Assembly (NCBI GenBank): GCA_000004985.1
Contig: GG738868.1
Length of the DNA: 64,000 nucleotides
From: Naegleria gruberi
Lineage: Eukaryota
Strand: one strand, 5' to 3'
The stretch's first letter is position 1. Every line of letters begins with the position of its first letter. The notes beneath the pieces are model-generated. The model made no database searches. It saw nothing but the letters and a program-made list of their open reading frames with translations, and was not told where the DNA came from. The position numbers were made by a program, and so were the translations under genes. Below, in pieces: positions 23,662-59,339 of the stretch.

Positions 23662-23835
23662 GCCTCTCAATATTCCTCTTCCAAATCTTTCACATTTCGT
23701 CCTTTCCAACACTCATCTAATGACTCACAATAATTATTGTAAATTCAATCTCTGCATAATTCAATACATAATACTCCTTGTACTTTTTTCGAAAAAATCG
23801 TTCGGAATAAAAAATTGAAAGGAAAATTAAAAAAA

Positions 23836-24871: not shown

Positions 24872-24921
24872 NNNNNNNNNNNNNNNNNNNNNNNNNNNNN
24901 NNNNNNNNNNNNNNNNNNNNN
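24872..24921. other. Assembly gap (50 N) between convergent genes PEX7 (+) and the 24934..26328 (-) gene
   Basis: A run of 50 'n' characters. Confidence 0.95.
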
Positions 24922-24933
24922 AATCTTTTCTTT

Positions 24934-29718: not shown

Positions 29719-32700
29719 TTATTGTTTATTGAGTTTTACTTGTAGTTCAAGTTCTTTAATTCTTTGTAAAAGTTGATAATTTTCCTCAATTATTTGACTC
29801 TTTTCATTCATTGTTTGAGTGTTTTCTTCTAGTATTTGATTGTAGCTCTTCAAAGGTGCAACTGTTCTATATTCTTTCATACTTGTTTCAATATCTTTGA
29901 TAGTTATGTTTTTACCTTGTAAATGTTGAACAATATCAGAAAGAATTGTTTTGTGAGTCCAACAATTCAATCTTTTAGAGGAATCTCTTTGAATCATTGT
30001 AATTATGAATCTAATTAATAGAGTATTGACATTAAAACTTGAATCAATAGTTCTATTGATCAATTTGTCAATAGCATAATGTAATTTAGTTTCTCCTTCA
30101 ACAGTTGTTACAACTGAAAAGAAATGTTTACCATATCCAGTAAAATACTGATAGTTCTCATCATATTTCTTAATTTCAGAATCGCTAATAAATTGTTGAT
30201 CCAATTGTAAAGAGCAATTTGTTAATATTTTCAATAGAATACATCCTAATGAAAACAAATCGCACTGAACTGTAATTTTACCAACATTTTGAGCTAGTTT
30301 TTCGTCATCATTTTGTTTTAACAATTCATCACTATAATTATCATATGAAACTTCAGGTGGCATGTATGAGGCCTTGCCTCGTGCAATAGTGATTGAATGA
30401 CCTGTCTTGATTACTTTAGCAGTGTCAAAATCAATGATTTTGTACTTGTCTTTCACCTTAACTATATTCTTTGGATCTAAATCTCTATGAGAAATGTTAT
30501 GGTCATGAATTGATTTTACAGAATCTAAAATTTTGATAAATATACTAAGGAATTCAATAAGTTTTTCTCTTGTTATATTTGCAGAATTTTGGTAGAGTGT
30601 TACATTTCTATTAATATAATCTAATAGGGTTTCTTCTCCTAATTCCATTACTGAGTACATGTAATTATCAATTAGTTCACATTCGTAACATATAATTTTC
30701 CCCTCAATATCATTTCTTTTAATAAATTGAACTCTTTCAAGAGATGATTTCTGATCGAATTCTTTATCAAATTTAACTTTAACAGCAACCAATTCTTTTC
30801 TAATTCTATCAAACCCTTTGAATGCAACTCCTTCTCCTCCATATCCTAAAACTGATAATAAATGAAATTTCTTATTGAAAAACGAGTAGTACTGATCTAT
30901 AATTTTGATTATTTTTGAAGAATCTCCAAATAGTTCATTATATTTTGTTAATGTTTTCTTGTAGTTGTCAAATGAAGAGCTGTTTTCAGTCCAACGAGAG
31001 AAAAAGTACAATATCATTTCTACATCTTTTGCTGAATAATATGATGTCTCGAATATGGATGAAATACTATCAACTTGCTTTCTCAGATTTGAAATAGGGG
31101 TTGGAATAATCTCACTTTCATTTTCTTCCAAAAATCTAGTTAATAATAAGCAAAACAGATGATAGTCAACTGATTCAAAAGTAGAAGCTTTGGTAAATGG
31201 ATGTTTTGATACTATATTTTTCACAATTTGCAAAATAATTAACTTGGTTATGAAATCAGCAGAGTATTTGGCACTAAATAACTTGAGAATTGGTTTTGGA
31301 AAAGTTTCATGTAAATCCAAGCAATAAAATAAATAACTTTCATCACAATACTTGTTTGAATACATTCCAACAATGTCCTTAGAAAGCTTTGTAGTCATTG
31401 GATCATTAGATTTTTCAATAAAATTAAATAACAAAGAGTTGATTTGATTAGCTCTTGTGGGATTAGTTTTTGTAAGTAAGTGGAAGAATGTTGTATCTGA
31501 AAGTAAGTGTGTATCTATGAAATCAATTGCAGTTGGGGTTTGTTTAACAGCTTCTAAAATTATATCCCTATCTTGAAGTAATGACTCGTCAATAAATAAA
31601 TACAGTTCACCATCTTGTTTCAAAGCTTCCAATACTATTTCTCTGTCTTTTGTTAATGTTTCGTCTGCATAGTAGAATGCTGTGCTATTTTGTTTTACAG
31701 CTTCCAACACGATTTTTCTATCCTTCCTCAATGAATCATCGGCATATCTAAGTACTTCTCCATTTTGTTTAACAGCTTCCATTACAATTTGCTTATCCCT
31801 TCTCAATGATTCATCAACTTGCTCAAGAGTATTTCCATTTTGTTTAACAGCCGCCAACGCAATTTGCTTATCTTTTTTAAAGGACTCATCTGTTGAAATT
31901 ACATCGCCATTCAATTTAACAGCTTCTAACACAAATTTTCTATCCTTCCTCAATGAATCATCTGCATATCTAAGTGCGTAGCCATTTTGTTTAATAGCTT
32001 CCAATACTAATTCTCTATCCCTTTTGAATGATTCATTGGCATAGTCAAGTGCGTAGCCATTTTGTTTAACTGCCTTCAAGACAATATCTCTGGTTTGTTC
32101 AAAGTTTGAAAAGGCGAAGTTTGTAAATAGCCTTAAAGCTTCTCCATTAGATTCAATTGCTTCCAAAATAAAGTCTGTGTTATATTTAAGCGAATCATCA
32201 ATAAAATCAAGAGCTTTTACATTTTTCTTTGTGGCCTCCAACACAATTTCTCTATTTTTAAAAAGTGAATGGTTTGTGTTTTTGAAAGGTAATCCATTTC
32301 GAATAGCTTGGATAACAATTTCTCTATCAATATTCATGGAAATATCAGATAGTTTAACACCATCTTGCTTGATAGCATTCAATTCAATTTCCTTTTTCAA
32401 TTTTTCAGCAATGGTAATATAGGCCAGGCCGTTTTGTTTAACAGCTTCCAATATAAACTGTCTATCACTTCTAAATGAACTATCTGCAAGTCTAAGTGCA
32501 CAGCCATTTTGTTTAATAGCTTCCCTAACAATTTCAATGTCTTGTTTGAATGATGCATCTATATACGGCAATGCTTCACCATTTAATTTCACAGCTTCCA
32601 ATACGAATGCTCTGTCTTTCTTAAATGACGAATCAGCATGACTGAATGCACTTCCCTTTTGTTTAATTGCCATCAGTACTATATTTCTATCGTTTTTAAA

Positions 32701-33048
32701 TGAATTGTCAGCAAACTGTAATGCAGTGCCATCCTGCTTAATGGCTGCCAACACAATTCTTCTGTCTCTTTTAAGAGTTTCGTCTGCAATCTCTAGTATT
32801 TGGCCATAGTTTTGTTTGATGGCTTCCAAAACTAAACCTCTATCTTTCCACAGTGATGGATCGGCATAAGATAATGTGTGACCATGTTTTTTAACTGACG
32901 CCATCACAATTTCTCGATTCGCCTTTAATGAAGAATGTGCATATAAAAGTGAGAGCGAACAATCTTGTTTAATACCTTGTAAAATGTATTTTTTATCTTT
33001 TTGCAACTTTTCATCGTTCATAAGTGATGAAACATCATACTCTTTCAT
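29719..33048 (-). CDS. Giant DUF4116-repeat protein (about 25 tandem ~36-aa repeats) fused to a C-terminal Ser/Thr protein kinase domain
   Basis: ATG at 33048. Repeats of the form ..DR.IVLEAVKQNG.AL.YADDSLRKDR.. across residues ~20-520. Kinase domain with LGYGGEGVAF (Gly loop), VAVKVK (VAIK), HRDLDPKNIV (catalytic loop), IIDFDTAKV (DFG variant), SYMPPE (APE-like). C-terminal coiled coil. Confidence 0.75.
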   Translation of the reverse strand: MKEYDVSSLMNDEKLQKDKKYILQGIKQDCSLSLLYAHSSLKANREIVMASVKKHGHTLSYADPSLWKDRGLVLEAIKQNYGQILEIADETLKRDRRIVLAAIKQDGTALQFADNSFKNDRNIVLMAIKQKGSAFSHADSSFKKDRAFVLEAVKLNGEALPYIDASFKQDIEIVREAIKQNGCALRLADSSFRSDRQFILEAVKQNGLAYITIAEKLKKEIELNAIKQDGVKLSDISMNIDREIVIQAIRNGLPFKNTNHSLFKNREIVLEATKKNVKALDFIDDSLKYNTDFILEAIESNGEALRLFTNFAFSNFEQTRDIVLKAVKQNGYALDYANESFKRDRELVLEAIKQNGYALRYADDSLRKDRKFVLEAVKLNGDVISTDESFKKDKQIALAAVKQNGNTLEQVDESLRRDKQIVMEAVKQNGEVLRYADDSLRKDRKIVLEAVKQNSTAFYYADETLTKDREIVLEALKQDGELYLFIDESLLQDRDIILEAVKQTPTAIDFIDTHLLSDTTFFHLLTKTNPTRANQINSLLFNFIEKSNDPMTTKLSKDIVGMYSNKYCDESYLFYCLDLHETFPKPILKLFSAKYSADFITKLIILQIVKNIVSKHPFTKASTFESVDYHLFCLLLTRFLEENESEIIPTPISNLRKQVDSISSIFETSYYSAKDVEMILYFFSRWTENSSSFDNYKKTLTKYNELFGDSSKIIKIIDQYYSFFNKKFHLLSVLGYGGEGVAFKGFDRIRKELVAVKVKFDKEFDQKSSLERVQFIKRNDIEGKIICYECELIDNYMYSVMELGEETLLDYINRNVTLYQNSANITREKLIEFLSIFIKILDSVKSIHDHNISHRDLDPKNIVKVKDKYKIIDFDTAKVIKTGHSITIARGKASYMPPEVSYDNYSDELLKQNDDEKLAQNVGKITVQCDLFSLGCILLKILTNCSLQLDQQFISDSEIKKYDENYQYFTGYGKHFFSVVTTVEGETKLHYAIDKLINRTIDSSFNVNTLLIRFIITMIQRDSSKRLNCWTHKTILSDIVQHLQGKNITIKDIETSMKEYRTVAPLKSYNQILEENTQTMNEKSQIIEENYQLLQRIKELELQVKLNKQ
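31490..32990 (-). repeat. Tandem array of ~108-nt coding repeats (DUF4116 units) inside the 29719..33048 gene
   Basis: The reverse-strand ORF 31682..31981 shows a periodic shadow translation (..FCLTASNT.FLSFLNESS..). The protein shows ~36-aa periodicity over ~500 residues. Confidence 0.6.
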
Positions 33049-33147
33049 TCTTCTTATTTTTTGATTTTAATCATCACGTTTGACACAATAATTTTCATTC
33101 GAACGAGAAAACAGATTTCTTTGGAGAATTAAACAAAACAATAAAAA

Positions 33148-33939: not shown

Positions 33940-35319
33940 TCATTCTCTGGATAATTGAAAGAGTGAAAACAAAGAAATTGGATAAATTTCATCACCATCC
34001 ACGATTAAATTACCTGAATCATGAAGAGCTCCGAGTTGTTGCTTAAAGTTAGATGGAATTGGCTCTTCCTGCAGGGCTATCCACAACTTCATGGCTTCAG
34101 AATACTTCAATGGAGTGAAAGATTCCAAATTGGCCTTTCTCACCTTATTCATATCGAGTTCAATATTTTCCTTAGAAAGTGAGAAATCAAATAATCTTGC
34201 CAATATTCCTCTATTATCTGAACAAAGTGATTCAAAAAATTCAGTATTGATTTCCAACATTTTCTTTGTAATTTCTAAAAGGAATTGATTTGAATCATCA
34301 CCAAGCTTGTGAGAATCAGAGATGGAGTAGGAAATATCCAACTCTTCCATCACTAACAATTTGCTTATTTCCCTCATGTTTCCTCCTGTGAGGAAGGTTA
34401 TCTCATTGGCTCTTCCTGATTTACATTTCAGGAACTCTTCAATATTCTTTGAGTTGGTTGGTTTCACAGAAGGGAGTCTAATTTCCAAGAACTTGCTTGG
34501 GGAGAATGCACGTTCTGATTTGAATGGAATGTTGACTTCAGATGAAGGAATGAAATTGGAACAGCTTAGAGTTACGGGAATTCTTCCACTGGAATCCCCT
34601 GCAAGAGTGGACAACCAGGCAATATGAGCATGTGCTTTTGGAAAGTCTTTGGTGTTCAATTCATAAACTTTCTCAACATTGTCAATTATTAACATTAAAT
34701 ACTTGTCGCTTGATTCGAGAAGGGTTGACAATTCATGAAGCTTATCACTATAACCTGACTTTTTTCTCTTCAACGAATGTTCCCTTTCCAATTCACTGAA
34801 AATCAAATCAATTGGTACAGTTTTCTTAAAGCTCTCATTTCCACAAATATGTTCGTATGTTAAATAAATTGGAATAACCTTAGGGTGGAAAACTTGGCAT
34901 GATTGAACAAAGTTTTTGTAGGTCATACTCTTTCCAATTCCTGAATTACCAACAAGAATGATATTGCTCACTCCAGTCTTTCGTACGAAATAACCACTTT
35001 CCAATAAGAAAGCTCGATGGGAAAGTTGCTTAAAGATAGAAGCATGAACAGGAGTATTCGCAATCTCGCTAACAGTAGAAGGATACTTCTCCTTACATGA
35101 TTTAAACATCCTTCTCCATTCCTCAAAAGTTACTGTCTGACTGTTGTAAAATTGTTTAAGTTTCAAAGTCAATGGATTATTCCTATTGGCACTCATTAGA
35201 AAAGAAGACCATTTCGATCCAATAGATGATTCTGATTTGCTGTACATTCTTACCATTACCTTGGGCTTAATCATCCTCAACAGATGATTGGAAGTACAAA
35301 GTTTGTGAGTTTTGAACAT
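33940..35319 (-). CDS. P-loop NTPase-domain protein (Walker A GNSGIGKS, Walker B-like LMLIIDNVE); STAND/AAA-like, function unknown
   Basis: ATG at 35319. ILVGNSGIGKSMTY and YLMLIIDNVEKVYE motifs. Basic N-terminus. Convergent with the NCS gene; only 27 nt separate the two stops. Confidence 0.5.
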   Translation of the reverse strand: MFKTHKLCTSNHLLRMIKPKVMVRMYSKSESSIGSKWSSFLMSANRNNPLTLKLKQFYNSQTVTFEEWRRMFKSCKEKYPSTVSEIANTPVHASIFKQLSHRAFLLESGYFVRKTGVSNIILVGNSGIGKSMTYKNFVQSCQVFHPKVIPIYLTYEHICGNESFKKTVPIDLIFSELEREHSLKRKKSGYSDKLHELSTLLESSDKYLMLIIDNVEKVYELNTKDFPKAHAHIAWLSTLAGDSSGRIPVTLSCSNFIPSSEVNIPFKSERAFSPSKFLEIRLPSVKPTNSKNIEEFLKCKSGRANEITFLTGGNMREISKLLVMEELDISYSISDSHKLGDDSNQFLLEITKKMLEINTEFFESLCSDNRGILARLFDFSLSKENIELDMNKVRKANLESFTPLKYSEAMKLWIALQEEPIPSNFKQQLGALHDSGNLIVDGDEIYPISLFSLFQLSRE

Positions 35320-41857: not shown

Positions 41858-43879
41858 TTATTCCACTTTTTCTTTTTGTTTGAAAAGAGAAATTATTGAG
41901 GTTCCAACCAAGACAGTCCAAGTTGGAATCATGACAACACAGAAACTGATATAGAATAGGTTTTGAGGTAGGTCAGTAATTGTGAAAAACCATTCGAGTT
42001 GACTTGAAATAGCTTCTCCAAAATAGTGTTGTCTTACAAGAATATTTACAATAATCAAATTGAATGGACAAGCTGCAAGTAAGGATACAAGCTGAACAAG
42101 CTTGGCAATAATGTTAGTTGGAAAAACTGTTGTCAAAATGCACAAAATTGATAAATAAGAGGAAAGGAAAATACACAAGGCACTCGAATAAATCATGATT
42201 GCTCCTACCATAATTCCAGAAAAAGCAATAGAAAGAGATTTGGCATATCTCCAATGGATTGGATTTGGTTTAGCTTTGAATAAATACTCGTAAATTCTAT
42301 TAACAACTGGGTAGAACAAAGTGAGAGAAGAAAGTACCAAAATTACAACTATTGAGATCCAATAAGTGGCAAATTGTTGCGAATCAAGAGCCAAATGACG
42401 AAGAGTATCCTTCAATATAATTGGTGTCAAATAAATTAAAACTCCATTAGCAAAATTAGAAATAACAAAAATGACTGCATGAGCAAGTTCTTTTTCGGAT
42501 GCAGTACTGGCATAGTAGTTTCCAATAAATTGAATAGCCAAACAACCAAGGAACATTAATAAGTTTGGTAAATAATGTTCAAATCCATAATAATGTTGTG
42601 AATCAGTAACATAGTACAAAAAGAACGATTGATGCAACTCTTCAATAAGGTTGTTCAAGCTTCTTATACTAATTTCCATAATTCTTCCCATCATGTAATA
42701 GGTATGCATGACACCAATTTTTGTAGTGTGCTGAGTAACAGAGTTAGTCAAAGTAATTGCATGAGTTAATTGTTGTCTGAACCAGGCATGTGGGCCAGTT
42801 GGGATGGAAATCAATTGATTATACCAATGGTTCAATACAATAACACTTCGTTCCATAAAAGAGTTTGGCAAATCAATTCCAAATGATCTAATCATTTCCA
42901 AAAATGCATGATGTAAATAGATAAATGCTGGTACATGATCCTTATAGTTTGGATACTGTTGCATGGTGGCATCAACATTTGGTGTTGCAGTCAGGTCAGC
43001 TTTAAAGAAAGTAGGAAGACCACCACGACCCATATTATAATGACTTTCACTCAATAAACCAGTCACAACATTGACCATGTCAAGATTTGGAAGTTCTCCA
43101 TTGACACCTTCAGTAAGAACAGCAACTTGTTGAAAATCAAATGATTCCAAATCCAAAGTAATGGCCTCTCTCATTCTACCAGTAGGAATAGCAGCAGATT
43201 TGATAAAAGCTTCTTCACCAGCCCAATTATGTTCATATCCATCACTAATAACCAAAATAATATCATGATTAAGCCATTTAACTCTTGAAATATATTTCAA
43301 CAATGCCAACGAGAAGGCCAAACTTTCAGATTTAAAATATGGAACTGTCAATATAATAGATTCCTTTCCATTACCTCTTCCTGGTCTAATAGCAATATAT
43401 AAATTTTCACCTCTCACATTTTCAATCCTATTAATATATCTTCTTTCAACACTATACTCATGTCTCTTCATTTCACTATAAAAAGGAATACTCTCAGAAT
43501 TTAAATAACTTTCAACAGCACTATAAGTTTGATTTCTAAAATCCAACTTGGCTGATCTACTATCCAATGTTTTTAATTGATTCAAAATTGAAACTCCATA
43601 ATCAGCATCTTGTTGATTAAATTCTGGTGTATGAAAAAACACAGAGAGAGCATTCTCCGAATAATAAATGTTTTTCGTAACGAAGGGCCAACATAAAAAC
43701 CATCCAATGGCTCCGATAAATAATAAATAGGAAACAATATTAAAGTATTTAAATAGGTGAAGAATAACTCTTCTCATCATGGGAACTTGTGTTGTATTGT
43801 TATTATTTTCATCAACATTAGGATCTCTTTCATGATCACCACGAGCGATCACTTCCTTCTCTTCGTCTATTTGTTCCAT
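41858..43879 (-). CDS. GPAA1: GPI transamidase component GAA1 (GPAA1)
   Basis: ATG at 43879. Conserved blocks YYSENALSVFF.. (human YMSENAMGS), GENLYIAIRPGRGNGKESIILTVPY ([25 protein letters not shown]), NGELPNLDMVNVV (NGQLPNLDLLNLF), LIEELHQSFFLYYV (LLERLHQSFFLYLL). N-terminal TM helix plus multi-TM C-terminal region. Confidence 0.88.
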   Translation of the reverse strand: MEQIDEEKEVIARGDHERDPNVDENNNNTTQVPMMRRVILHLFKYFNIVSYLLFIGAIGWFLCWPFVTKNIYYSENALSVFFHTPEFNQQDADYGVSILNQLKTLDSRSAKLDFRNQTYSAVESYLNSESIPFYSEMKRHEYSVERRYINRIENVRGENLYIAIRPGRGNGKESIILTVPYFKSESLAFSLALLKYISRVKWLNHDIILVISDGYEHNWAGEEAFIKSAAIPTGRMREAITLDLESFDFQQVAVLTEGVNGELPNLDMVNVVTGLLSESHYNMGRGGLPTFFKADLTATPNVDATMQQYPNYKDHVPAFIYLHHAFLEMIRSFGIDLPNSFMERSVIVLNHWYNQLISIPTGPHAWFRQQLTHAITLTNSVTQHTTKIGVMHTYYMMGRIMEISIRSLNNLIEELHQSFFLYYVTDSQHYYGFEHYLPNLLMFLGCLAIQFIGNYYASTASEKELAHAVIFVISNFANGVLIYLTPIILKDTLRHLALDSQQFATYWISIVVILVLSSLTLFYPVVNRIYEYLFKAKPNPIHWRYAKSLSIAFSGIMVGAIMIYSSALCIFLSSYLSILCILTTVFPTNIIAKLVQLVSLLAACPFNLIIVNILVRQHYFGEAISSQLEWFFTITDLPQNLFYISFCVVMIPTWTVLVGTSIISLFKQKEKVE

Positions 43880-44985: not shown

Positions 44986-46527
44986 TTAAGGTAATTTCAT
45001 AAGTCTGACAGTGTGGGCCATATGATTGACAGTTTCAGCACCAATTACTAAGACTACCAGATCGCCAGGTTGGGCAAATGACTTTTCAACCAAATATTTA
45101 CAACAAAGCTCTTCGACACTGTGAGGACCTGTGATGTAATCCGTGTTATGGATTAGTACAGGAGTAATTCCCCAACCTAATGTGAGACGATTGAATGTAA
45201 ATTCTTGATCTGTCAATGCAATGATTGGAACATTAGGTCTGTATTGAGAAATACTGACAGCTGTTTTCCCTGAATTAGTGATACAACAAATTAATTTAAC
45301 ACCAGAGTGCTTATTTGCAATAGTAGAAGCAGCCATGCAGCTAGCATTTTCAATAGAGTCAGTGGCATTACTGTTGAAATCATTCTCATGAGAGTCCAAT
45401 CTACCAAACTTGTGAGAATTGATGTCAGCTGTTCTCACAATTAAGTGCATAGTTTTGACAGAAAGAACTGGATATTTTCCCATAGCTGATTCATTACTCA
45501 ACATGACTACATCTGTTCCATCAAAACATGCATTGGAAACATCTGTAACTTCAGCTCTGGTTGGAATTTTACTTTCAACCATAGATTGCAGCATTTGGGT
45601 GGCTGTAATATCAATTTTACCTGCTTTGGAGGATTTTTCAATTAATTCCTTTTGGAAAATTGGTAATTCATGGAAATTAGTCTCAATCATCAAATCACCT
45701 CTATGTGAAATAATTATCAGAAAAAAAATCATTCTACAAACTTACCTTGCAACCATCAATCCATCAGCTTCCTTAAGAATGGCATCAATATTTCTAATAG
45801 CTTCAATTCTCTCAATTTTTGCAATAATTGGAATAGTTTTACCAGCAAATTTCATCATTAGATTCTTGGCATCAATAATATCTTGAGCAAATCTGACAAA
45901 ACTCAAACAAACATAATTAATTTCACCACATTTCATACCAAATTCCAAATCAGCAATATCTTTTTCTGTCAATGCAGGGGCTGAAATAGTTGCCCCTTCA
46001 TCAACCATATTAATTCCCTTTCTTTGAGATAACATTCCTCCTGTTACAACTTTACAAACCATTTCAGTTTCTTCTTGATTTTTAGAAACAACGTGCACTT
46101 CCAAATAACCATCATCAATCATTAATTTAGAGCCAGGTCTACAATCCCTAACCAAATTTGGATAAGAAGTAGAAACTTTTCTAGGTCTAGTTTCATTATC
46201 TTCACCACTCGCAATAACACTCTTATCTGTAGTGATCACAATTTCCTCTCCCTCAACAATCATGAAAGATTTACCCAATTTACCAATTCTAATCTTTGGA
46301 CCTTGAAGATCTTGAACAATTGCAAATGGAATTCCACCCAATTCCTTCTGTGCCTCTCTAATCTTTTGAATCGTCTCCAAATGAACGTTGTGTTCTCCAT
46401 GACTAAAGTTTAATCTAGCTGCGTTCATTCCTTCCATCATCATTTGCATTATTATAGATTTATCGGAAGAGCTTGGGCCGATCGTGCACAATATTTTGGT
46501 TCTTCTATCAGATGCTGTTCCGTTCAT
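44986..46527 (-). CDS. PYK: Pyruvate kinase, 2 exons: 46527..45746 and 45700..44986 (45-nt intron GTAAGT...TTTCACATAG)
   Basis: ATG at 46527. ..RRTKILCTIGPSS..MQMMMEGMNAARLNFSHGEH..LQGPKIRIG..MVDEGATISAPALTEKDIADLEFGMKCGEINYVCLSFVR..IIAKIERIEAIRNIDAILKEADGLMVA|R|GDLMIETNFHELPIFQKELIEKSSKAGKIDITATQMLQSMVESKIPTRAEVTDVSNA.. The intron splits the invariant MVARGDLGIE motif (phase 2). Confidence 0.92.
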
Positions 46528-51502: not shown

Positions 51503-54500
51503 CTAATCAGAGTCTGTACTTGCATCTCCATAATCATCTTCCTCTTCAACCTTCATAGTTTCTTCTTCCTCAGGATCACTATCACCATTGTCATCAATAT
51601 TGTCTTCCTCCTCTTCTTCATTCTCCTCATCACTGTCAAAATCAACTCTTTTTTTAGCCTTATAATTAATCAGAGAAGGATTCATTGAAGAGGTATATCC
51701 AAAACAGAATACTTGAAAACCACCAACTCCATTCAACAACATTTGAGTTTTTTCACAAATTTCCAATTCACACCATCCTCTTTCAGCTGCCTCCTTCTTT
51801 GTTGGAGTTGGATTTTTCTTTCCTGGATTGGCACTAACTGTGAGTAAGGTTTCCTTTCTCAATTGATTTTCTGGTTCTTCCCAAAAGTCATCTGAGCTAA
51901 TTGGTAAAATACCTTCCATAGAAGGTAAGAAATAAGTATTCACAGCAGAAGTCAAATAGGAAATAGTATGGGTTGGTCTCTTGAGATTATGAATCTTGTT
52001 TTTCAAACTATCATTCACTTGATAGTTCCACATAGCTACTCTTCCAATATGTTTCTTATTGTCAAATATGGATTCCAACTGTTCAACCAAAAATCTTGCA
52101 ATTTGAATGTCAGGATTGTTGAGTTGAATTTCTTTCAATAATTCAATAAATTGTTGAGGATTGTGAATTATTAATTTAAGAGTTGATTCTGAGGATACTT
52201 CATTAGTAATTTCTGTTATTCTACTATTATACTTTTTTCTTGATGGACCTTTGATCGATTTGATATATTCATCCAAAATGTCCAACAAGTGAAATCGTCC
52301 ATTTCCCAATTCTTCAATGATTTGATCAGTCAAATTGTATTTTAACTTGAGTATTTTCAAGCAATTAGCTGCAAACTCCGGTTCCAGTAGAATTTCTTTC
52401 AACTTTGCAAATCTAACCCTAGAAACGTTTGGATTAAATAGCTCAGTATGTAAAACTTTTTCCATAAATTGTAAACTTCTGAGCATTGATGTTTCATGTG
52501 AAACAAACAATTTTTGTTGTCTACTATATTCATAAAATTCTAAAATGTCATCTTGAATAATATGAATGCATTCAAGTTTAAGAAATTGACCAATTGCCAA
52601 AATTGAGGAATGAACAATGCCAGGTCCAAGAGGCATATTAGATTCCAAAACAATAAAATTGTAGTCATCCACTCTATTTCCATTAGATATAATCCATTTC
52701 TTATATCTATTGATATATTTTGATTCTGTTACAATGGTTACACAATTTGGAATTGAATCTGAATGCAGCTTCTTCACGAAATTAGAATAGAGATAAGGTT
52801 TCCAAAATTTTCCTCTTGGTCTTGATTTGATAAATAGAGGTTTCAATCCATCACTAGTGAGCGTTGAAATCTGTTTCAGTTTAGTCAAAAAGCTTTCTTC
52901 ATTATAGGAAATTTCTAGAATTTCATCATCTCTATTAAACTTGACCAATATTTCGTTATCATTCGAATAGTTTCTATCCATTACTTTAACAGGAATTGTG
53001 TATCTATCTCTCTTCTCGAATTTGAATTTCAACAAGGCATCGTTATGTGAGCAAAATGATTTTTGTTTTTCTTGCTTTTTTGCTTTCTTCTTTTCCTTCT
53101 TCTTCTTTTCCTTCTTTTCAGGGACAGGAGGTCTTAAATCAGTTACACTTTCAGATTCTTTATCTGGAAGATCTAATTTACATTCTTCCAATCTTTGTGG
53201 GAATGGATATTTGTCTTCAATGATTACCTCACCAATTGATGATTTCTTATTTTGGTACTTTGTCAATAGTTGTTTAACATTTTTGTGTAAACCAAAACTC
53301 AATTCTTCCCATGATTGGACAGTTTCCTCAAATTGAACACTAAAATCATGTTCAAAATCTTCCACTGCTTGCACAATATCTAGAATTATCTTTTCCTTTG
53401 ATTTGTCCTTTTCCTCAAAATTTGGATTCAAAGAATAGCACAAAGACTGGACCCACTCTAATGGAATGATAGTATCACTTCTCAGGTATGATTCTTGCAA
53501 AATAGATGTTAATTTGGCTTGGAATCTTTTAGTAAGAGTGTTGAAACAACTTAAAAAGCTCTCTAATTTTAAAAAAAACCCACTGTTAAAATACCCAAAG
53601 CATTGCTTCCACCTCTTGATTCTCTGTGGTACTTTCAATTGGTTTAGTTTCTTTTGTTTTGTTTTTTTCAATTCAGGTACAATTTCTTTCCTTTGAAAAC
53701 CTAATACAATAGGATTGGTGTAATAGGATGAAAACTTCTTTACGAAAGAATCTATTGTCTTTTCTTTTAAGGCATCCACATCAGGTATATTTTCTTTCAA
53801 TCCATCAATAACACTTTGCAATTTCTTCTGAATTTTCTGGATACATGACTTCAATTCTTTCACGAACTTTAATGGAAACTTTTGTACTTTCTTAATAGTT
53901 GTATTAGACAGTACAACAATAGCCATGTCTCTTAATTGACTAATATTGTTTGATATAATCTTTTTTCTATTGTTTTCAATAATTGATTGTAAATTGGAAA
54001 CAAAGTGATCTCTCATTTCAACGTTGTTAGGTGGTGGAAAACAAACTAAATCAAAATTATCATATAATCCCTTTACAAAATCATACTTGTTTTCCATATC
54101 AATTTCATTGGTATTGATATTATTGGCTTCTAATTCCAAGTCGAAAGGGACATCATCTAGCTCACAATCGAAATGAAAAGCAAGTTGCTTTCCATATGAT
54201 TCTTTCATGGGTTTGAAAACGTTTTTTGTCATAACCTCATTCTTGTAGCTCTCCTCATTCATTACCTTATTATTAGCTAAGATTGCAATGTAAGGTTGAT
54301 GGGTTTGTTGTGGTTGATGGATACCATAATCCCACACCTTTTGTACAATACCATCATCAAGAATGATCCTTTCATTTTCAATACCACACAATAACAAGCA
54401 GGTGTCATATAAACTTTCTCTTATCAAATGCTTGTAGGATACATTTTCATGGACATTTACTGGATCAGTAGTTTGCTTTTCATCATATCCAGGCATATCT

Positions 54501-55243
54501 CTGAGAATTATTTTGCTCCTTTGAAGGAACTTGGAAGGGATTTTCAAGATTAACTTCTTAATATGGACTTTCTTAAAGTTGGTGTCAGCATCAAACTCTA
54601 AAATCTTGTTACGTGCTTTAGTGGCCAGAAATTCATAAAGTTCCTCTTCAGAATTTCCATTGTCAATAATATAATTTGATTGATTGTCAATTTCACAATC
54701 TTTCAAAGTATCAGTAGCAAGTTGTTCAACTTTCCTTGCACACAACTCTTGTTGTGAACAATACTGAACAGTCAAACTGTAAGTTGGTGAATACTCAACA
54801 TCAACAACTGTACGTGTCAAACCCTTTCCAAACTGAACAGCAGAAGGAAGAGGAGCATTAGTCATTTTGAAATCAGACAACAATTGATCAATGATGAAGG
54901 ATTTACCATATCCTGGCTTACAAAACAGGGTAACCACAACTTTGCCCCGAAAATCCTTGATGATTCCCTCCATAGACTCTAAATGTTCAGAACACATTGT
55001 CCTAATGGATCCCTTCTTATTGGAACCGTTTAAATGTTCCTTGTAGAATGTTTTAACCTTATCAAAATCCTCAGTTTCTGTCTTCATTTGTTTATCCTCC
55101 TGCTGTTCATTGCCATTCTCTGGTGATGGGTCCATTTTGATTTTCTTGGGTGCTTGTTCTGTAGATGATGAAGCAGTTGCAGCAGCAGCAGCAGTAGCAG
55201 TAGTAGCACTCGGAGAGTGAGTAATCTTTCTCTTTCGAAGCAT
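51503..55243 (-). CDS. Large (1246 aa) P-loop NTPase-domain protein, possibly dynamin/IRG-like GTPase; acidic C-terminus, Lys-rich internal stretch
   Basis: ATG at 55243. P-loop VVVTLFCKPGYGKSFIIDQLL; about 130 aa downstream KIILRDMPGYDEKQ (DxPG, resembling the dynamin-superfamily G3 DLPG). K-rich [20 protein letters not shown]-terminal EEEEEDNIDDNGDSDPEEEE. Shares the P-loop...DMPG arrangement with the adjacent 55848..57146 gene. Confidence 0.5.
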   Translation of the reverse strand: MLRKRKITHSPSATTATAAAAATASSSTEQAPKKIKMDPSPENGNEQQEDKQMKTETEDFDKVKTFYKEHLNGSNKKGSIRTMCSEHLESMEGIIKDFRGKVVVTLFCKPGYGKSFIIDQLLSDFKMTNAPLPSAVQFGKGLTRTVVDVEYSPTYSLTVQYCSQQELCARKVEQLATDTLKDCEIDNQSNYIIDNGNSEEELYEFLATKARNKILEFDADTNFKKVHIKKLILKIPSKFLQRSKIILRDMPGYDEKQTTDPVNVHENVSYKHLIRESLYDTCLLLCGIENERIILDDGIVQKVWDYGIHQPQQTHQPYIAILANNKVMNEESYKNEVMTKNVFKPMKESYGKQLAFHFDCELDDVPFDLELEANNINTNEIDMENKYDFVKGLYDNFDLVCFPPPNNVEMRDHFVSNLQSIIENNRKKIISNNISQLRDMAIVVLSNTTIKKVQKFPLKFVKELKSCIQKIQKKLQSVIDGLKENIPDVDALKEKTIDSFVKKFSSYYTNPIVLGFQRKEIVPELKKTKQKKLNQLKVPQRIKRWKQCFGYFNSGFFLKLESFLSCFNTLTKRFQAKLTSILQESYLRSDTIIPLEWVQSLCYSLNPNFEEKDKSKEKIILDIVQAVEDFEHDFSVQFEETVQSWEELSFGLHKNVKQLLTKYQNKKSSIGEVIIEDKYPFPQRLEECKLDLPDKESESVTDLRPPVPEKKEKKKKEKKKAKKQEKQKSFCSHNDALLKFKFEKRDRYTIPVKVMDRNYSNDNEILVKFNRDDEILEISYNEESFLTKLKQISTLTSDGLKPLFIKSRPRGKFWKPYLYSNFVKKLHSDSIPNCVTIVTESKYINRYKKWIISNGNRVDDYNFIVLESNMPLGPGIVHSSILAIGQFLKLECIHIIQDDILEFYEYSRQQKLFVSHETSMLRSLQFMEKVLHTELFNPNVSRVRFAKLKEILLEPEFAANCLKILKLKYNLTDQIIEELGNGRFHLLDILDEYIKSIKGPSRKKYNSRITEITNEVSSESTLKLIIHNPQQFIELLKEIQLNNPDIQIARFLVEQLESIFDNKKHIGRVAMWNYQVNDSLKNKIHNLKRPTHTISYLTSAVNTYFLPSMEGILPISSDDFWEEPENQLRKETLLTVSANPGKKNPTPTKKEAAERGWCELEICEKTQMLLNGVGGFQVFCFGYTSSMNPSLINYKAKKRVDFDSDEENEEEEEDNIDDNGDSDPEEEETMKVEEEDDYGDASTDSD

Positions 55244-55847: not shown

Positions 55848-57146
55848 TTAATCATGAGACTTTTCATAATTATTATTTTTCTTAATAATTTGAATGGTAC
55901 TAGTTTGGGCCGAGGAAATTTTAGCATGTGCTACCTCAACCAACTTCAAAAGTAATTTCAAATGCATGTATTCGAAAATCTTGACAATTTCCTCATTTTT
56001 ACATTGGAATTTGGAAATGAATGGAATTGGATAGTCAGCAGAAACGATATTCTCAAAGTTTCCATCGCCCGTCTCTAAAATATCCCATTCATAGAACAAT
56101 TTCAATACATTGGCTTTGGTGATTTCAATTGGAACTTCATCTTGAGTTCTCATATCAAGTATTGGAACACTCTTCTCAATGTAATCTCTGAAAATGGAAT
56201 GGCCATCAATTTTAGAGTAGCAATAAATGCACGAGGTGGAGAATTCAGAGGAAATATAGGATGGAATCGATGTATAATAGTCAAGCATGGTTTCCTTAGT
56301 TTTAGATTCTGTTGAGAACATGGTTGGATTGTTAATAGGAATTGGAACAAACACAGCATGAGGAGCATCAAATTCTTGTGCAACTTGTTCAAAAACTGTC
56401 TTGAATAAATATTCAGAAAATTCAAACTTCTCAATGAGTTGCTTTTCGTTATCGAATTTGAAAAATCCTGGCATATCTTGAAGATAGATCTTTTCAAATT
56501 TTTCGACATCATCAATTGGGATCTTGGATACATCCTTAGTGAATGAATTGAGATAGTCTTTGGACGGATTTTTAGCATCAGAGAGGATCTTGTAGGCCAT
56601 TTCCATGAAACTTGCACTACCTTCCTTAAATGGAACTCGTTTTGATTTGAGTGTTTTAAGAATTCTATTCAAGATGGTTGATTTTCCACCAGATGCAATG
56701 GAGACACCAGCCAAAGTGATTTGATTATCACCAATCATCTCCAATTGAGTAATAATCTGTTCCTTCAGCATTTCACAATTAAAATCAATGTGTAACAGTT
56801 CTGTTGTTTCCTTTTTGAGAGATTGTACCATTACATTTTCAACTGAGTGAACTACTATTCCATCCAAAGTTTCAATTCTTGCATTGAACAGAATATTTTC
56901 TGGAACAATAATAGAACATCTAGCTTCCTTGGTTTCTTGATCATAACCATCTCCTGCCACAAAGAGCTTTTTTACAATTTTCTTATCGAGATAGCTTACA
57001 ACTACTTTGAAAGCTGTGTGGGCAGTTTCATTCACGATAGTGTTAAACTTGAATTGAAATATAACCTTGGCTAATCTGGTAATATGATGTGAAGGGTTGA
57101 ATCTTGGTGGTGTAACTTTGGTTTCGGCTGAGTATTGGTTTCCCAT
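55848..57146 (-). CDS. N-myristoylated P-loop NTPase, possibly IRG/dynamin-like GTPase (432 aa); paralogous to the N-terminal domain of the 51503..55243 protein
   Basis: MGNQYSAE.. (G2/S6 myristoylation consensus). P-loop ITLAGVSIASGGKSTILNRIL; ~80 aa later KIYLQDMPGFFKFDNEKQ. The promoter contains two AAACGTG motifs (57191-57195, 57228-57232). Confidence 0.5.
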   Translation of the reverse strand: MGNQYSAETKVTPPRFNPSHHITRLAKVIFQFKFNTIVNETAHTAFKVVVSYLDKKIVKKLFVAGDGYDQETKEARCSIIVPENILFNARIETLDGIVVHSVENVMVQSLKKETTELLHIDFNCEMLKEQIITQLEMIGDNQITLAGVSIASGGKSTILNRILKTLKSKRVPFKEGSASFMEMAYKILSDAKNPSKDYLNSFTKDVSKIPIDDVEKFEKIYLQDMPGFFKFDNEKQLIEKFEFSEYLFKTVFEQVAQEFDAPHAVFVPIPINNPTMFSTESKTKETMLDYYTSIPSYISSEFSTSCIYCYSKIDGHSIFRDYIEKSVPILDMRTQDEVPIEITKANVLKLFYEWDILETGDGNFENIVSADYPIPFISKFQCKNEEIVKIFEYMHLKLLLKLVEVAHAKISSAQTSTIQIIKKNNNYEKSHD

Positions 57147-57368
57147 CTTGTATTTTTTTAATGTTTTGAGTTTTGTTTTTGAATGTCAAAACGTGTTGCT
57201 ATTTAAATGAAAATCATGATATTCGAAACGTGAAGTGCTTCTGATTGGATGGTGGTTGTAAACTTCAATACGAAATGGATTCCTTCTTATTCAATGCAAA
57301 TTTAAAAATACTTTCACGTTTGATTAAATTTGAAAATATATTAAGGGAAAAACTGTAGATATATCAGC

Positions 57369-57500
57369 TTACTAAGCAGAACAAGCTTGGCATTAATGTT
57401 AGTTGGAAAAACTTTTGTCAATTTGCTCAAAATTGATAAATAAGAGGAAAGGAAAATACACAAAGCACTCGAATAAATCATGATTGCTCCTACCATAATT
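57369..57500. repeat. ~130-nt duplicated fragment of the GPAA1 coding sequence (copy of 42085..42216) in intergenic DNA; about 95% identical
   Basis: 57379-57497 agcagaacaagcttggcattaatgttagttggaaaaacttttgtcaatttgctcaaaattgataaataagaggaaaggaaaatacacaaagcactcgaataaatcatgattgctcctaccataatt versus 42091-42218 agctgaacaagcttggcaataatgttagttggaaaaactgttgtcaaaatgcacaaaattgataaataagaggaaaggaaaatacacaaggcactcgaataaatcatgattgctcctaccataatt. Same orientation; about 6 substitutions. Confidence 0.8.
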
Positions 57501-57526
57501 TTATTGATATTAAATAGTTAATTTTT

Positions 57527-58261
57527 TTATTGAGATGATTGCCTTAATATTTCATTTGCCTTATTTGAAATTTCATAATCTCCAAATCCTTTAATTGCTA
57601 TATATGGAAAATCAGAAGAAATACCATATTTAACTAGCAATATATCAGCTCCATTTGCATGTTCGCTATTTAGTTTTTTCGCACTTCTTGTTGGTTCAAA
57701 AGCAATTTGTCTCATTTTGACCTTTTTTTTAAGTTCACTTATCTTGAAAATCGTTTGAATTTTCTCATCCAATTTGGAATGATTGCAATTATATCCCAAA
57801 TAATACAAATTCTTAATTACTATTGATTCAGTTTCCCTCATAGCTTCGTTTACAGGTGTTTCTTGCGTTTTCTCTACATTCTTCTGATTTTCTTCATCAT
57901 CAGTTTCCTTTCCATGTGTTTCACCATTTTTCTTGACATTCTTCAATTTAGATTCGTCCACATATTCCTGAATTGGTACAATAGCAGCAGAACTTGTCGA
58001 ATGATCAACGCTCATCGTATTATAGTTGGTATTTTGATTTTCCTTATTGAATTCTTTTGATTCTTCATCCACTTGACTAGGATTTCTACACAATTTACCA
58101 ACTACAAGTGCAGGTTGATTGAAAACCAACAATGCCATCAACATCATTTGTAAATAAACAATATATGGAAGTAAGCCAACCAATAAGAAACCCAAAAAGA
58201 AGGCAACAAGTACATTTCGTTGATCCAAACATGTCTGAAAAAGATAGAGTGGTAGAAACAT
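57527..58261 (-). CDS. Membrane-anchored protein with conserved C-terminal domain (paralog A of an inverted pair); function unknown
   Basis: ATG at 58261. N-terminal TM helices (VLVAFFLGFLLVGLLPYIVYL..). C-terminal ~100 aa (..IVIKNLYYLGYNCNHSKLDEKIQTIFKISELKKKVKMRQIAFEPTRSAKKLNSEHANGADILLVKYG..PYIAIKGFGDYEISNKANEILRQS) about 75% identical to the 58650..59339 product. Confidence 0.5.
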   Translation of the reverse strand: MFLPLYLFQTCLDQRNVLVAFFLGFLLVGLLPYIVYLQMMLMALLVFNQPALVVGKLCRNPSQVDEESKEFNKENQNTNYNTMSVDHSTSSAAIVPIQEYVDESKLKNVKKNGETHGKETDDEENQKNVEKTQETPVNEAMRETESIVIKNLYYLGYNCNHSKLDEKIQTIFKISELKKKVKMRQIAFEPTRSAKKLNSEHANGADILLVKYGISSDFPYIAIKGFGDYEISNKANEILRQSSQ

Positions 58262-58522
58262 GATCTATTGTAAGTTAAAGAGAAATAATGAACTGGCCTT
58301 CTCATTGAGAAGAATTTGCTTGAATAATTTCCATTTTCCAGTTTCTGATGTTTCGTCGGCCATAGAATCGGCCCTTTTCACAAAACACAACATGATTGGG
58401 AAGAGATTGGCCAATAAACAAAGTAGGAAATGTGAGAAACCATATTGTTGAGTGGTTCTGAAGGAAAGTGTCTCAAGTTTCGTATAGGTCATCATACGAG
58501 AATATAACTTTAATTTTTTTCA

Positions 58523-58640
58523 ATACCTCTCTTCCAAACGTGATTCAAATATTTTGATTTATTTTCATACCTTTCTTCCAAACGTGATTTTGAAAAACGT
58601 GTAAGTTTACAATCCACCAGTATTCGAAACGTGATTCACT
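58523..58640. promoter_or_regulatory. Shared bidirectional promoter region of the inverted paralog pair containing four AAACGTG(A/T) motifs and a 23-nt direct repeat
   Basis: ACGTG cores at 58538-42, 58582-86, 58597-601 and 58629-33. Direct repeat atacctctcttccaaacgtgatt / atacctttcttccaaacgtgatt (58523-45 and 58568-90). attcgaaacgtga also occurs at 57221-57233 upstream of the 55848..57146 gene. Confidence 0.3.
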
Positions 58641-58649
58641 TTAAAAAAA

Positions 58650-59339
58650 ATGCTCAAATTTATTAGTGGAGTTGTTTGTGGAAGTGGAATTACAACACTA
58701 GCCCAGTTCTATGTATCGTCAACCAAATTAGAGAGTCCACCAGGCAGTGAAATTTCACAAGTTGAACCTTTACATGTTGTGATGAATGATTCAACTCCAT
58801 CACCCAGTCATTCATTGGCAATTCCAAGTACGGATTCATCTCTAAATGTTATAGGATTGACTTTGGGAGGAAATTTTGTTTTGATTTGGGTGGTGTTGTG
58901 GGAAGTGGGTAAAATCTTATTTGGTAAGAAGAACGAGAAAAGGGAAATGAGAAAGGAAGAAGCTCAACAAGACGAAACAACAAAACTGAATAATTCTGAA
59001 GGAAAAATTGAAACTGAATCAAGTATCATTAAGAATTTGTATTATTTGGGATATAATTGCAATCATTCCAAATTGGATGAGAAAATTCAACAGATTCTCA
59101 ATACTAATCAACTTGAAAAAAAGGTCAAAATGAGACAAATTGCTTTTGAATCAACGAGAAGTTTGAAAAAGCCAACAAGTGAACATGCGAATGGAGCTGA
59201 TATATTGCTAATTCCTTCTGGAGATTGTCTTTTTATGGATATTCCATATATAGCAATGAAAGGATTTGGAGAATATGAAATTTCAAATAAGGCTATTGAA
59301 TTATTGAAACAATCTGTACAAATAAATTCAAATTATTGA
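58650..59339 (+). CDS. Membrane-anchored protein with conserved C-terminal domain (paralog B, divergently transcribed from paralog A)
   Basis: ATG at 58650. N-terminal hydrophobic segments. C-terminal ..IIKNLYYLGYNCNHSKLDEKIQQILNTNQLEKKVKMRQIAFESTRSLKKPTSEHANGADILLIPSG..PYIAMKGFGEYEISNKAIELLKQS. Confidence 0.5.
   Translation: MLKFISGVVCGSGITTLAQFYVSSTKLESPPGSEISQVEPLHVVMNDSTPSPSHSLAIPSTDSSLNVIGLTLGGNFVLIWVVLWEVGKILFGKKNEKREMRKEEAQQDETTKLNNSEGKIETESSIIKNLYYLGYNCNHSKLDEKIQQILNTNQLEKKVKMRQIAFESTRSLKKPTSEHANGADILLIPSGDCLFMDIPYIAMKGFGEYEISNKAIELLKQSVQINSNY

What the first reader, a model, noticed from the sequence alone, without database searches (positions are those of the whole stretch)
57150..58650. 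Inverted head-to-head pair of paralogous genes sharing a promoter with repeated AAACGTGA motifs; the same motif also lies upstream of the adjacent myristoylated NTPase
Genes 57527..58261 (-) and 58650..59339 (+) encode membrane-anchored proteins whose C-terminal ~100 aa are ~75% identical. This is a local inverted duplication with divergent N-termini. The 388-nt shared upstream region holds four ACGTG cores, each in an AAACGTG(A/T) context, two of them inside a 23-nt direct repeat. A 13-nt match (attcgaaacgtga) and a second AAACGTG lie within 90 nt upstream of the ATG of the neighbouring gene 55848..57146. Together this suggests a small co-regulated cluster under a shared ACGTG-type (G-box/HRE-like) cis element. 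The conserved C-terminal domain has no family I can name.
Basis: seen in the sequence. Interest (0 to 1): 0.55.

Follow-up and report, generated by a model that had tools for sequence, protein, structure and literature searches.

The report
Orphan gene trio sharing AAACGTGA promoter motif
Three neighbouring genes found only in the amoeba Naegleria gruberi carry a non-random cluster of one short DNA motif (AAACGTGA) in their promoters, so they are probably switched on together, but neither the regulation nor the proteins' function could be tested here.

Summary
The window is Naegleria gruberi NEG-M nuclear DNA. The sequence observations hold. Genes A (57527..58261, -) and B (58650..59339, +) share a C-terminal domain that is 75% identical. 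Seven of the window's ten AAACGTG copies lie in the two intergenic regions flanking gene A (P about 5e-7).

Three corrections:
- The duplication is only a sharply bounded 300-nt inverted block (85% nt identity). The whole genes are not duplicated.
- Gene A's ORF runs 231 nt further upstream. It is broken in NEG-M by one in-frame TAG that reads TCG in a roughly 98% identical strain. The divergent promoter is therefore 154 nt, not 388.
- That promoter is built of three ~45-nt modules, each ending in AAACGTGATT.

Only 4 of 37 ORF-genes in the window have AACGTG within 200 nt of the ATG: the P-loop gene, A, B and one DUF4116-kinase.

A, B and the P-loop gene have no detectable homologues outside N. 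gruberi. AlphaFold models were unusable.

The best reading is a homotypic cluster of ACGT-core transcription-factor sites that co-regulates a young, lineage-specific gene trio. This is plausible but untested: no genome-wide or expression data were reachable. Interest is modest.

The parts
55848..57146 (-). Orphan P-loop gene NAEGRDRAFT_58069 (432 aa). It has an MGNQYS N-terminus (myristoylation-type pattern), GGKST at residues 152-156 and DMPG at 223-226.
   Evidence: ORF. Identity. No homologue in 5.8 billion proteins. No Pfam at E<=0.01. MMR_HSR1 GTPase matches only at 15 bits against a cut-off of 21.9. AlphaFold pLDDT 31.
57189..57195 (+). AAACGTG copy (GTCAAAACGTGT), 43-49 nt upstream of the P-loop gene ATG, antisense to that gene.
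57220..57233 (+). TATTCGAAACGTGA, an exact 14-mer also present at 58621-58634. It lies 74-87 nt upstream of the P-loop gene ATG.
57314..57321 (-). AAACGTGA copy in the sense orientation of the P-loop gene, about 170 nt upstream of its ATG. It forms a 9-nt inverted pair with the copy at 57226.
   Evidence: sequence
57374..57500 (.). 127-nt copy, 94.5% identical, of an internal piece of the Gaa1 gene (42089-42215). It sits just 3' of gene A's stop codon and marks the region as a patchwork of short duplications.
57527..58261 (-). Gene A, NAEGRDRAFT_49159. This is the part of the ORF downstream of the in-frame TAG (244 aa). The JGI model starts later and gives 205 aa.
58262..58264 (-). In-frame TAG in NEG-M. 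The same codon is TCG (Ser) in sister-strain contig L001.
58265..58495 (-). 76-codon N-terminal extension of gene A. It contains a TM segment and is continuous with A in strain L001.
   Evidence: Hydropathy. Its codon score is the best of six frames and exceeds 97% of intergenic frames.
57537..57835 (-). Left arm of the 300-nt inverted duplicated block (C-terminal module of A).
   Evidence: blastn 85% identity, E 6e-97, with sharp boundaries. dS 0.28, omega 0.54.
59010..59314 (+). Right arm of the inverted duplicated block (C-terminal module of B).
58496..58649 (.). 154-nt divergent promoter between A (ATG at 58495) and B (ATG at 58650).
58509..58636 (+). Three ~45-nt tandem modules (58509-58545, 58553-58589, 58600-58636). 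The second and third are 86% and 65% identical to the first, and each ends in AAACGTGATT. Start-to-start spacing is 44 and 47 nt.
58595..58601 (+). Fourth AAACGTG (GAAAAACGTGT), lying between modules. It reads AAATGTG in strain L001.
58650..59339 (+). Gene B, NAEGRDRAFT_67696 (229 aa), with one TM segment at residues 64-86. Its ATG is the first in-frame ATG after a TGA 18 nt upstream.
   Evidence: sequence
33074..33081 (-). The only other promoter-proximal AAACGTGA in the window. It lies 25-32 nt upstream of the ATG of the DUF4116-repeat protein kinase 29719..33048.

Best explanation
Shown: this is a young gene neighbourhood specific to Naegleria gruberi. Two membrane-anchored orphan genes sit head to head, 154 nt apart. 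They share only a recently duplicated (or gene-converted) 300-nt inverted block that encodes a ~100-aa C-terminal domain of unknown fold. The 154-nt spacer and the promoter of the adjacent orphan P-loop gene together hold seven copies of TC-N(0-1)-AAACGTG(A). Every one of the three genes has a copy within 50 nt of its ATG.

Inferred: the motif is the binding site of an ACGT-core-recognising transcription factor, of bZIP or bHLH type. The sites act in either orientation, because they are sense to B and antisense to A and to the P-loop gene. Their number was raised by tandem duplication of a ~45-nt promoter module. The homotypic cluster makes the three genes a co-regulated, probably inducible unit transcribed divergently from a compact bidirectional promoter.

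The proteins' function is unknown. The domain follows a TM segment and a basic stretch (GKKNEKREMRK in B), so it most likely faces the cytosol. The myristoylation-type, GTPase-like neighbour would be at the same membranes.
For: - Organism and gene identities.
- Motif cluster: 7 of 10 AAACGTG fall within 1,445 nt, and all are intergenic. P is 5e-7, or 1.5e-6 without the tandem copy.
- In 40 Markov-simulated windows, only one double-counted palindromic 7-mer reached the same score.
- AACGTG lies within 200 nt of the ATG in only 4 of 37 ORF-genes, with 3, 4 and 4 copies at the three adjacent genes.
- The genome is CpG-depleted (o/e 0.42), so a CpG-bearing motif is unlikely to accumulate passively.
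- Outside the one clear tandem duplicate, copies share only the motif and 2-6 flanking bases. This includes an exact 14-mer in two promoters whose flanks are otherwise unrelated. That pattern fits selection on the site better than simple descent.
- The three AAACGTGATT copies are intact in the sister strain, while 5 other positions of the 154-nt spacer differ.
- The motif occurs in both orientations relative to the downstream genes, which argues for a DNA-level rather than an RNA-level element.
- No ncRNA or tRNA is hidden in the spacers.
- Both gene copies keep 100-codon ORFs in AT-rich DNA, with omega 0.4-0.6.
Against: - There is no expression, TSS or binding evidence of any kind.
- Genome-wide motif enrichment could not be computed, because only 64 kb of a 41-Mb genome was available.
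- Strain comparison is uninformative: divergence is about 2-3%, and the chance that 5 differences miss 30 motif bases is about 0.34.
- One of the four spacer motifs is lost in the sister strain.
- Two motif copies owe their existence to a tandem duplication, and the region demonstrably accumulates short duplications.
- The proximal copy at B ends 15 nt from the ATG, an unusual place for an upstream activator site.
- Purifying selection on the shared domain is weak (omega 0.54), and gene A carries a nonsense codon in the reference strain. The genes may therefore be marginal or decaying.
Confidence: 0.5

Rival explanations
1. The motif copies are neutral by-products of local micro-duplication. 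The region is a patchwork assembled from short copied segments, and the AAACGTG-bearing pieces were simply copied along, with no regulatory role.
For: - There is a 44-nt tandem duplication at 86% identity, plus a weaker third module.
- There is a 300-nt inverted block.
- A 127-nt Gaa1 gene fragment is inserted next to gene A.
- The B-UBC spacer shows an indel of about 500 nt between strains.
- The exact 14-mer shared by two promoters could be a copied fragment.
Against: - Apart from modules 1 and 2, similarity between copies stops at the motif edges.
- The seven copies occur in both orientations and in two separate spacers, and none lies in the 969 nt of coding DNA between them.
- A CpG motif in a CpG-depleted genome (o/e 0.42) should decay, as one copy has done in L001.
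Confidence: 0.25
2. The motif is a gene-class-specific core-promoter or 5'-leader element. It would act near the transcription start, in the way alternative initiator motifs do in other protists, rather than as an upstream activator site.
For: The nearest copy lies within 50 nt of the ATG at each motif-bearing gene: -22 at B, -32 at the DUF4116-kinase, -47 at A and -49 at the P-loop gene. Upstream regions are otherwise A-rich, with TTTAAA next to the ATG.
Against: - The proximal copy is sense at B and the kinase but antisense at A and the P-loop gene. Core and leader elements are normally strand-specific.
- Multiple copies are spread over 115 nt, which fits enhancer-like sites better.
- 33 of 37 genes lack the motif.
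Confidence: 0.12
3. The structure is a mobile or foreign element. One form would be a foldback or TIR transposon whose 300-nt arms are the 'paralogous domains'. The other would be a giant-virus insertion whose genes carry a viral promoter motif.
For: - 300-nt inverted arms are separated by 1.17 kb.
- Four consecutive intronless orphan ORFs occupy 51.5-59.3 kb.
- A conserved octamer sits close to each ATG, as in giant-virus promoters.
Against: - The arms are in-frame coding sequence and keep open frames in both copies and in both strains.
- I saw no target-site duplication at the arm ends when reading the sequence, and there is no transposase between the arms.
- There is no further copy in the window.
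- There are no relatives in IMG/VR viral contigs or in any protein database.
- GC content is the same as in the flanks.
Confidence: 0.03
4. The clustering of a short AT-rich-flanked motif is pure chance.
For: Short motifs do recur by chance. One of 100 shuffles reached 10 total copies in the window.
Against: The clustering, not the total count, is what is extreme. P is 5e-7, about 4e-3 after correction for all 7-mers. In addition all copies are restricted to promoter DNA.
Confidence: 0.02

Closest known systems
T/G-box and G-box ACGT-core cis-elements (AACGTG / CACGTG) bound by bHLH and bZIP factors, for example plant MYC2 T/G-box and ABRE ACGTG
   Same: The hexamer AACGTG is identical to the T/G-box. 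It has an ACGT core, occurs as multiple clustered copies close to the start codon, and appears to act in either orientation. The comparison rests on my general knowledge of these elements.
   Different: No palindromic CACGTG occurs anywhere in the window. The conserved flanks TC-N-AA...GA(TT) are specific to this locus. No binding factor is known in Naegleria. The organism is a heterolobosean, far from plants and animals.
Hypoxia-response element (RCGTG, bound by HIF bHLH-PAS heterodimers)
   Same: The core ACGTG fits RCGTG.
   Different: The match is at pattern level only. Every copy has AAACGTG rather than the preferred TACGTG. Whether N. gruberi has bHLH-PAS factors was not tested, and no hypoxia data were reachable.
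Bidirectional promoters of head-to-head gene pairs
   Same: Two divergently oriented genes have start codons 154 nt apart (388 nt by the reference ORF) and share repeated sites in the spacer.
   Different: The two genes are partial paralogues that share only a 3' module. All spacer motifs point the same way. Co-expression is unproven.
TRAFAC-class P-loop GTPases (Pfam MMR_HSR1; dynamin-like G1 and G3 motifs)
   Same: The neighbouring gene has GGKST, then DMPG about 70 residues later, and an SKID that could be a G4 variant. The best, sub-threshold, Pfam hit is MMR_HSR1 over exactly this stretch.
   Different: The score is 15 bits against a cut-off of 21.9. There is no homologue in any database, no usable structure model, and the Walker A motif lacks the first G/A of [AG]xxxxGK[ST].

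Membership tests
G-box (CACGTG) element | Palindromic CACGTG hexamer | tested here: not met
   There are 0 CACGTG in 64 kb. All copies read AACGTG.
T/G-box / ACGT-core element | AACGTG hexamer with an ACGT core in promoter DNA | tested here: met
   Seven copies lie within 175 nt of three ATGs. This is a match of sequence pattern only.
T/G-box / ACGT-core element | Bound by a bHLH or bZIP factor, with motif-dependent transcription | not testable with these tools
   No binding or expression data were reachable.
Hypoxia-response element | RCGTG core | tested here: met
   ACGTG is present in all copies. The pattern is only 5 nt long, so it has low specificity: 25 copies occur in the window.
Hypoxia-response element | HIF-type bHLH-PAS factor in the organism, and induction by hypoxia | not tested
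   The N. gruberi proteome could not be queried for bHLH-PAS, and no hypoxia data were available.
Bidirectional promoter | Head-to-head genes with start sites less than 1 kb apart | tested here: met
   The ATGs are at 58495(-) (58261 in the NEG-M ORF) and 58650(+).
Bidirectional promoter | Correlated expression of the two genes | not testable with these tools
   No expression tables were held.
Regulon / co-regulated cluster defined by a shared motif | Motif enriched in member promoters relative to other promoters | tested here: met
   Within the window, 3 of 3 cluster genes carry the motif against 1 of 34 others. Genome-wide enrichment was not testable.
P-loop GTPase (Pfam MMR_HSR1 / TRAFAC) | Score above the Pfam gathering threshold | tested here: not met
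   15.0 bits against a cut-off of 21.9, E 0.027.
P-loop GTPase (Pfam MMR_HSR1 / TRAFAC) | G1 GxxxxGK[ST], G3 DxxG and G4 [NT]KxD motifs in order | tested here: inconclusive
   The sequence has SIASGGKST (the first position is S, not G/A), DMPG, and only an SKID variant. This comes from reading the translation.
N-myristoylated protein | MG at the N-terminus with a small or hydroxyl residue at position 6 | tested here: met
   The N-terminus is MGNQYS. This is a pattern match only, and the modification itself was not tested.
TIR / foldback DNA transposon | Terminal inverted repeats flanked by target-site duplications, with multiple genomic copies or a transposase | tested here: not met
   The arms are coding. 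I saw no TSD when reading the sequence. No further copies exist in the window, and no transposase ORF lies between the arms.
Giant-virus-derived insertion | Relatives of the genes in viral genomes | tested here: not met
   No tblastn-confirmed relatives were found in IMG/VR for the A/B domain or the 1246-aa orphan. The P-loop gene has no homologue at all.
PADLOC candidate defence protein PDC-S05 | Significant match of the shared domain to the family models | tested here: inconclusive
   Only gene A's copy matches (E 5e-4 and 0.024 for two models, 15 bits). Neither gene B nor its strain variant matches.

The most novel reading that the evidence does not exclude
TCNAAACGTGA is the recognition element of a Naegleria-specific inducible regulon. 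Its members are lineage-restricted membrane proteins carrying a novel ~100-aa cytosolic domain, together with a myristoylated GTPase-like protein. Such a set could be a protist-specific stress or anti-microbial response module, born recently by shuffling of short DNA segments. The weak PDC-S05 hit of gene A's domain and the motif at a DUF4116-kinase promoter would be the first hints of its wider membership.
Probability: 0.08. Interest if true: 0.6.

Novelty: new member of a known kind. Interest (0 to 1): 0.3.

Why it matters
Almost nothing is known about cis-regulatory DNA in Naegleria or in any heterolobosean. My literature searches found no described promoter motif for this organism. If the motif is confirmed, this locus would give a compact 154-bp natural promoter with a defined repeated element. 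That would be useful as a tool and as an entry point to a transcription factor-target pair in a deep-branching eukaryote.

The locus is also a clean small example of how orphan genes are assembled. One 300-nt coding module is joined to two unrelated membrane anchors. A gene fragment has been copied nearby, a promoter module has been tandemly amplified, and a nonsense polymorphism separates strains. None of this overturns current understanding.

Tried and rejected
- Homology for the shared domain. The word-indexed search found only B, a 96% strain variant and A. Exhaustive HMMER over 1.84 billion representatives found only the same two clusters. Pfam and PDB sequences gave nothing.
- Homology for the P-loop gene. 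It hit only itself, and PDB gave nothing.
- Structure route. AlphaFold2 gave pLDDT 39 for the domain (3-sequence alignment) and 31 for the P-loop gene. Both are too poor for fold searches, so none were run.
- Orthologous loci for phylogenetic footprinting. The UBC/F-box neighbour gave no Naegleria orthologue. IMG/VR and JGI metagenome scans with the domain found nothing.
- A metagenome scan for paired AAACGTGATT gave more than 120 unrelated contigs, and none resembled the window.
- Fetching more N. gruberi DNA failed, because the genome is not in the gene-position collection.
- Expression evidence. Locus tags appear in no searchable paper. The key microarray and RNA-seq papers are not held or have no held supplements. 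Three other supplement sets do not list these genes.
- Intron rescue of the TAG in gene A was considered and rejected. The sister strain has a sense codon and a continuous ORF, and the candidate GT..AG spans I examined by eye are out of frame or have poor donor sites.
- Hidden ncRNA in the spacers was rejected.
- The giant-virus and transposon readings were rejected (see the rival explanations).
Full report
**Source and gene identities.** The window is nuclear DNA of Naegleria gruberi NEG-M, from a 427,589-bp scaffold. It is 32% GC and CpG-depleted (o/e 0.42).
- Gene B (58650..59339, +) is NAEGRDRAFT_67696.
- Gene A (57527..58261, -) is NAEGRDRAFT_49159. Its database model starts at an internal Met and gives 205 aa.
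- The 'NTPase' (55848..57146, -) is NAEGRDRAFT_58069.

- The C-terminal domains of A and B are 75% identical over about 105 aa. BLASTP gives 62% over 133 aa, E 3e-51.
- The domain is not low-complexity.
- B has one clear TM segment, and A has two to three.
- AAACGTG occurs 10 times in 64 kb, against 3.9 +/- 1.95 expected.
- Seven copies lie between 57189 and 58633, and all are in intergenic DNA.
- Seven of ten random sites falling within 1,445 nt has P = 5e-7, or 1.5e-6 if the obvious tandem duplicate is counted once. That is roughly 4e-3 after correction for all 7-mers.
- The only 7-mers more clustered in the window come from a 75-nt coding tandem repeat in a DUF4116-kinase gene.
- In 40 Markov-simulated windows, the one equal score came from a double-counted palindromic overlap.
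- The 23-nt direct repeat matches 22/23.
- The match to the neighbouring promoter is an exact 14-mer, TATTCGAAACGTGA.
- A third copy upstream of the P-loop gene, at 57314-57321 on the minus strand, had been missed.

**Three corrections to the anatomy.**

1. The 'inverted duplication' is not a duplication of genes. DNA similarity is one block of about 300 nt, 57537-57835 against 59010-59314, at 85% identity. It begins abruptly at the codons for ETES and ends near the stop codons, and nothing outside it is alignable. A single 3' coding module is therefore joined to two unrelated membrane anchors, either by partial duplication or by a gene-conversion tract. Within the block dS is 0.28 and omega 0.54. 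Between strains omega is 0.4-0.6. This indicates weak constraint, typical of young genes.

2. A 3,219-bp contig from an ENA metagenome (L001) carries the same locus from a strain about 98% identical in DNA. In that contig gene A's ORF runs on for 77 more codons, to an ATG equivalent to window 58495. In NEG-M the same frame is open too, apart from one TAG at 58262-58264 that is TCG in L001. The extension encodes a further TM segment. Its codon usage is the best of six frames and beats 97% of intergenic frames. By my estimate a 77-codon open frame in this base composition has a chance of about 0.002. The real A-B spacer is thus 154 nt. The reference strain carries a nonsense allele, a truncated start, or a sequencing error.

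3. The 154-nt spacer is made of three ~45-nt modules (58509-58545, 58553-58589, 58600-58636). The second and third are 86% and 65% identical to the first, and each ends in AAACGTGATT. An extra AAACGTGT lies between modules.

**How specific the motif is.** I took 37 long ORFs as gene proxies. AACGTG occurs within 200 nt upstream of the ATG at only four of them:
- the P-loop gene, at -49, -86 and -174;
- A, at -47, -91, -106 and -138;
- B, at -22, -54, -69 and -113;
- a DUF4116-repeat protein kinase (29719..33048), at -32.

The aligned sites give TC-N(0-1)-AAACGTG-A. Relative to the downstream gene, the copies are sense at B and the kinase. They are antisense at A, and mostly antisense at the P-loop gene. 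This argues for a DNA-level, orientation-independent element rather than an RNA signal. No Rfam family or tRNA lies in 55-60.5 kb.

Comparison with L001 is not informative. Five differences fall in the 154-nt spacer and none hits the three AAACGTGATT copies, but chance alone gives that outcome with P of about 0.34. The fourth copy is lost in L001 by a C-to-T change.

**What the proteins are.** All three are orphans.
- The shared domain finds only A, B and the strain variant in the 5.8-billion-protein search. It finds only the same two clusters in an exhaustive HMMER pass over 1.84 billion representatives.
- Pfam and PDB sequences give nothing.
- The P-loop gene finds only itself. Its best Pfam hit is a sub-threshold MMR_HSR1 GTPase match over the GGKST-to-DMPG stretch, at 15 bits against a cut-off of 21.9.
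- The N-terminus MGNQYS fits the myristoylation pattern.
- AlphaFold2 models were unusable (pLDDT 39 and 31), so no fold search was run.
- A weak PADLOC hit (PDC-S05, E 5e-4) is seen for A's domain only, not B's. I treat it as an unconfirmed lead.
- No viral relatives were found.

**Interpretation.** The best-supported reading (confidence about 0.5) is a homotypic cluster of ACGT-core transcription-factor sites. The cluster was partly amplified by tandem duplication of a promoter module. It would co-regulate a compact divergent gene pair and the adjacent gene. By sequence the hexamer AACGTG equals the T/G-box and fits RCGTG, but no CACGTG G-box exists in the window. The factor is unknown, and co-expression could not be examined.

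The main rival (about 0.25) is that the copies are passive products of the micro-duplications this region clearly undergoes. A 127-nt, 94.5% identical piece of the Gaa1 gene sits right after gene A's stop. The B-UBC spacer also differs by about 500 nt between strains. Against that rival:
- similarity between most copies stops at the motif edges;
- the copies occur in both orientations and only in promoter DNA;
- the motif carries a CpG in a CpG-poor genome.

A core-promoter or leader role (about 0.12), a mobile or viral origin (about 0.03) and chance (about 0.02) are less likely.

**Limits.** The N. gruberi genome is not in the retrievable collections. The relevant expression papers or supplements are not held. 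Scans for orthologous or similar loci found nothing useful.

**Verdict.** The sequence feature is real and statistically solid, and the locus anatomy is now better defined. The regulatory interpretation is sensible but unproven. This is a new example of known kinds of thing: a bidirectional promoter with clustered ACGT-core sites, and orphan genes built from shuffled segments. Interest is modest (0.3).

Noticed in passing
window 57374-57500 and 42089-42215: A 127-nt segment from inside the Gaa1 (GPI transamidase) ORF 41858..43879(-) is copied at 94.5% identity into the spacer just 3' of gene A, on the same strand. It is a short dispersed duplication.
   Followed up: yes
window 58262-58264 (-) and L001 594-596: An in-frame TAG in NEG-M gene A corresponds to TCG (Ser) in a roughly 98% identical strain. 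It may be a nonsense polymorphism, a pseudogenising mutation or an assembly error in the reference.
   Followed up: partly
window 59340-60184 and L001 1673-2007: The spacer between gene B and the UBC/F-box gene is 845 nt in NEG-M but 335 nt in the sister strain. The extra DNA includes a 21-nt tandem repeat at 59797-59859.
   Followed up: partly
window 21112, 41805, 41824, 44973, 15834, 3607, 3667 (intergenic): (A)AGACGT(T/C) recurs in several intergenic regions, twice within 20 nt at 41805 and 41824 downstream of the Gaa1 stop. It may be a second ACGT-core promoter element of N. gruberi.
   Followed up: no
window 29719..33048 (-), repeats at 31687-32085: This is a 1109-aa protein with 11 DUF4116 repeats (a 75-nt coding tandem array) and a protein kinase domain. 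It is the only other gene in the window with AAACGTGA close to its ATG.
   Followed up: partly
window 51503..55243 (-): This is a 1246-aa orphan with GYGKS and DMPG motifs and an acidic tail, sitting next to the P-loop gene. It has no Pfam domain, no viral relatives and no AACGTG upstream. Its similarity to the P-loop gene is limited to the DMPG stretch (E 0.18).
   Followed up: partly
window 44986..45732 and 45742..46527 (-): Pyruvate kinase is split over two adjacent ORFs (barrel N-part, then barrel C-part plus the alpha/beta domain). This suggests a short intron or a frameshift.
   Followed up: no
window 24872-24921: A run of 50 N (an assembly gap) lies inside overlapping ORF calls 23815..25029 and 24934..26328.
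   Followed up: no
window 33940..35319 (-): A 459-aa protein has weak AAA_22 and NACHT-type P-loop matches, making it a STAND-like NTPase. It lies immediately upstream of the motif-bearing kinase gene.
   Followed up: no
window 57527..58261 residues 150-216: Gene A's copy of the shared domain gives a borderline hit to PADLOC candidate defence family PDC-S05 (E 5e-4 and 0.024 for two models). Gene B's copy does not.
   Followed up: partly
window 3721-3791 (-): tRNA-Gly(TCC) gene.
   Followed up: no
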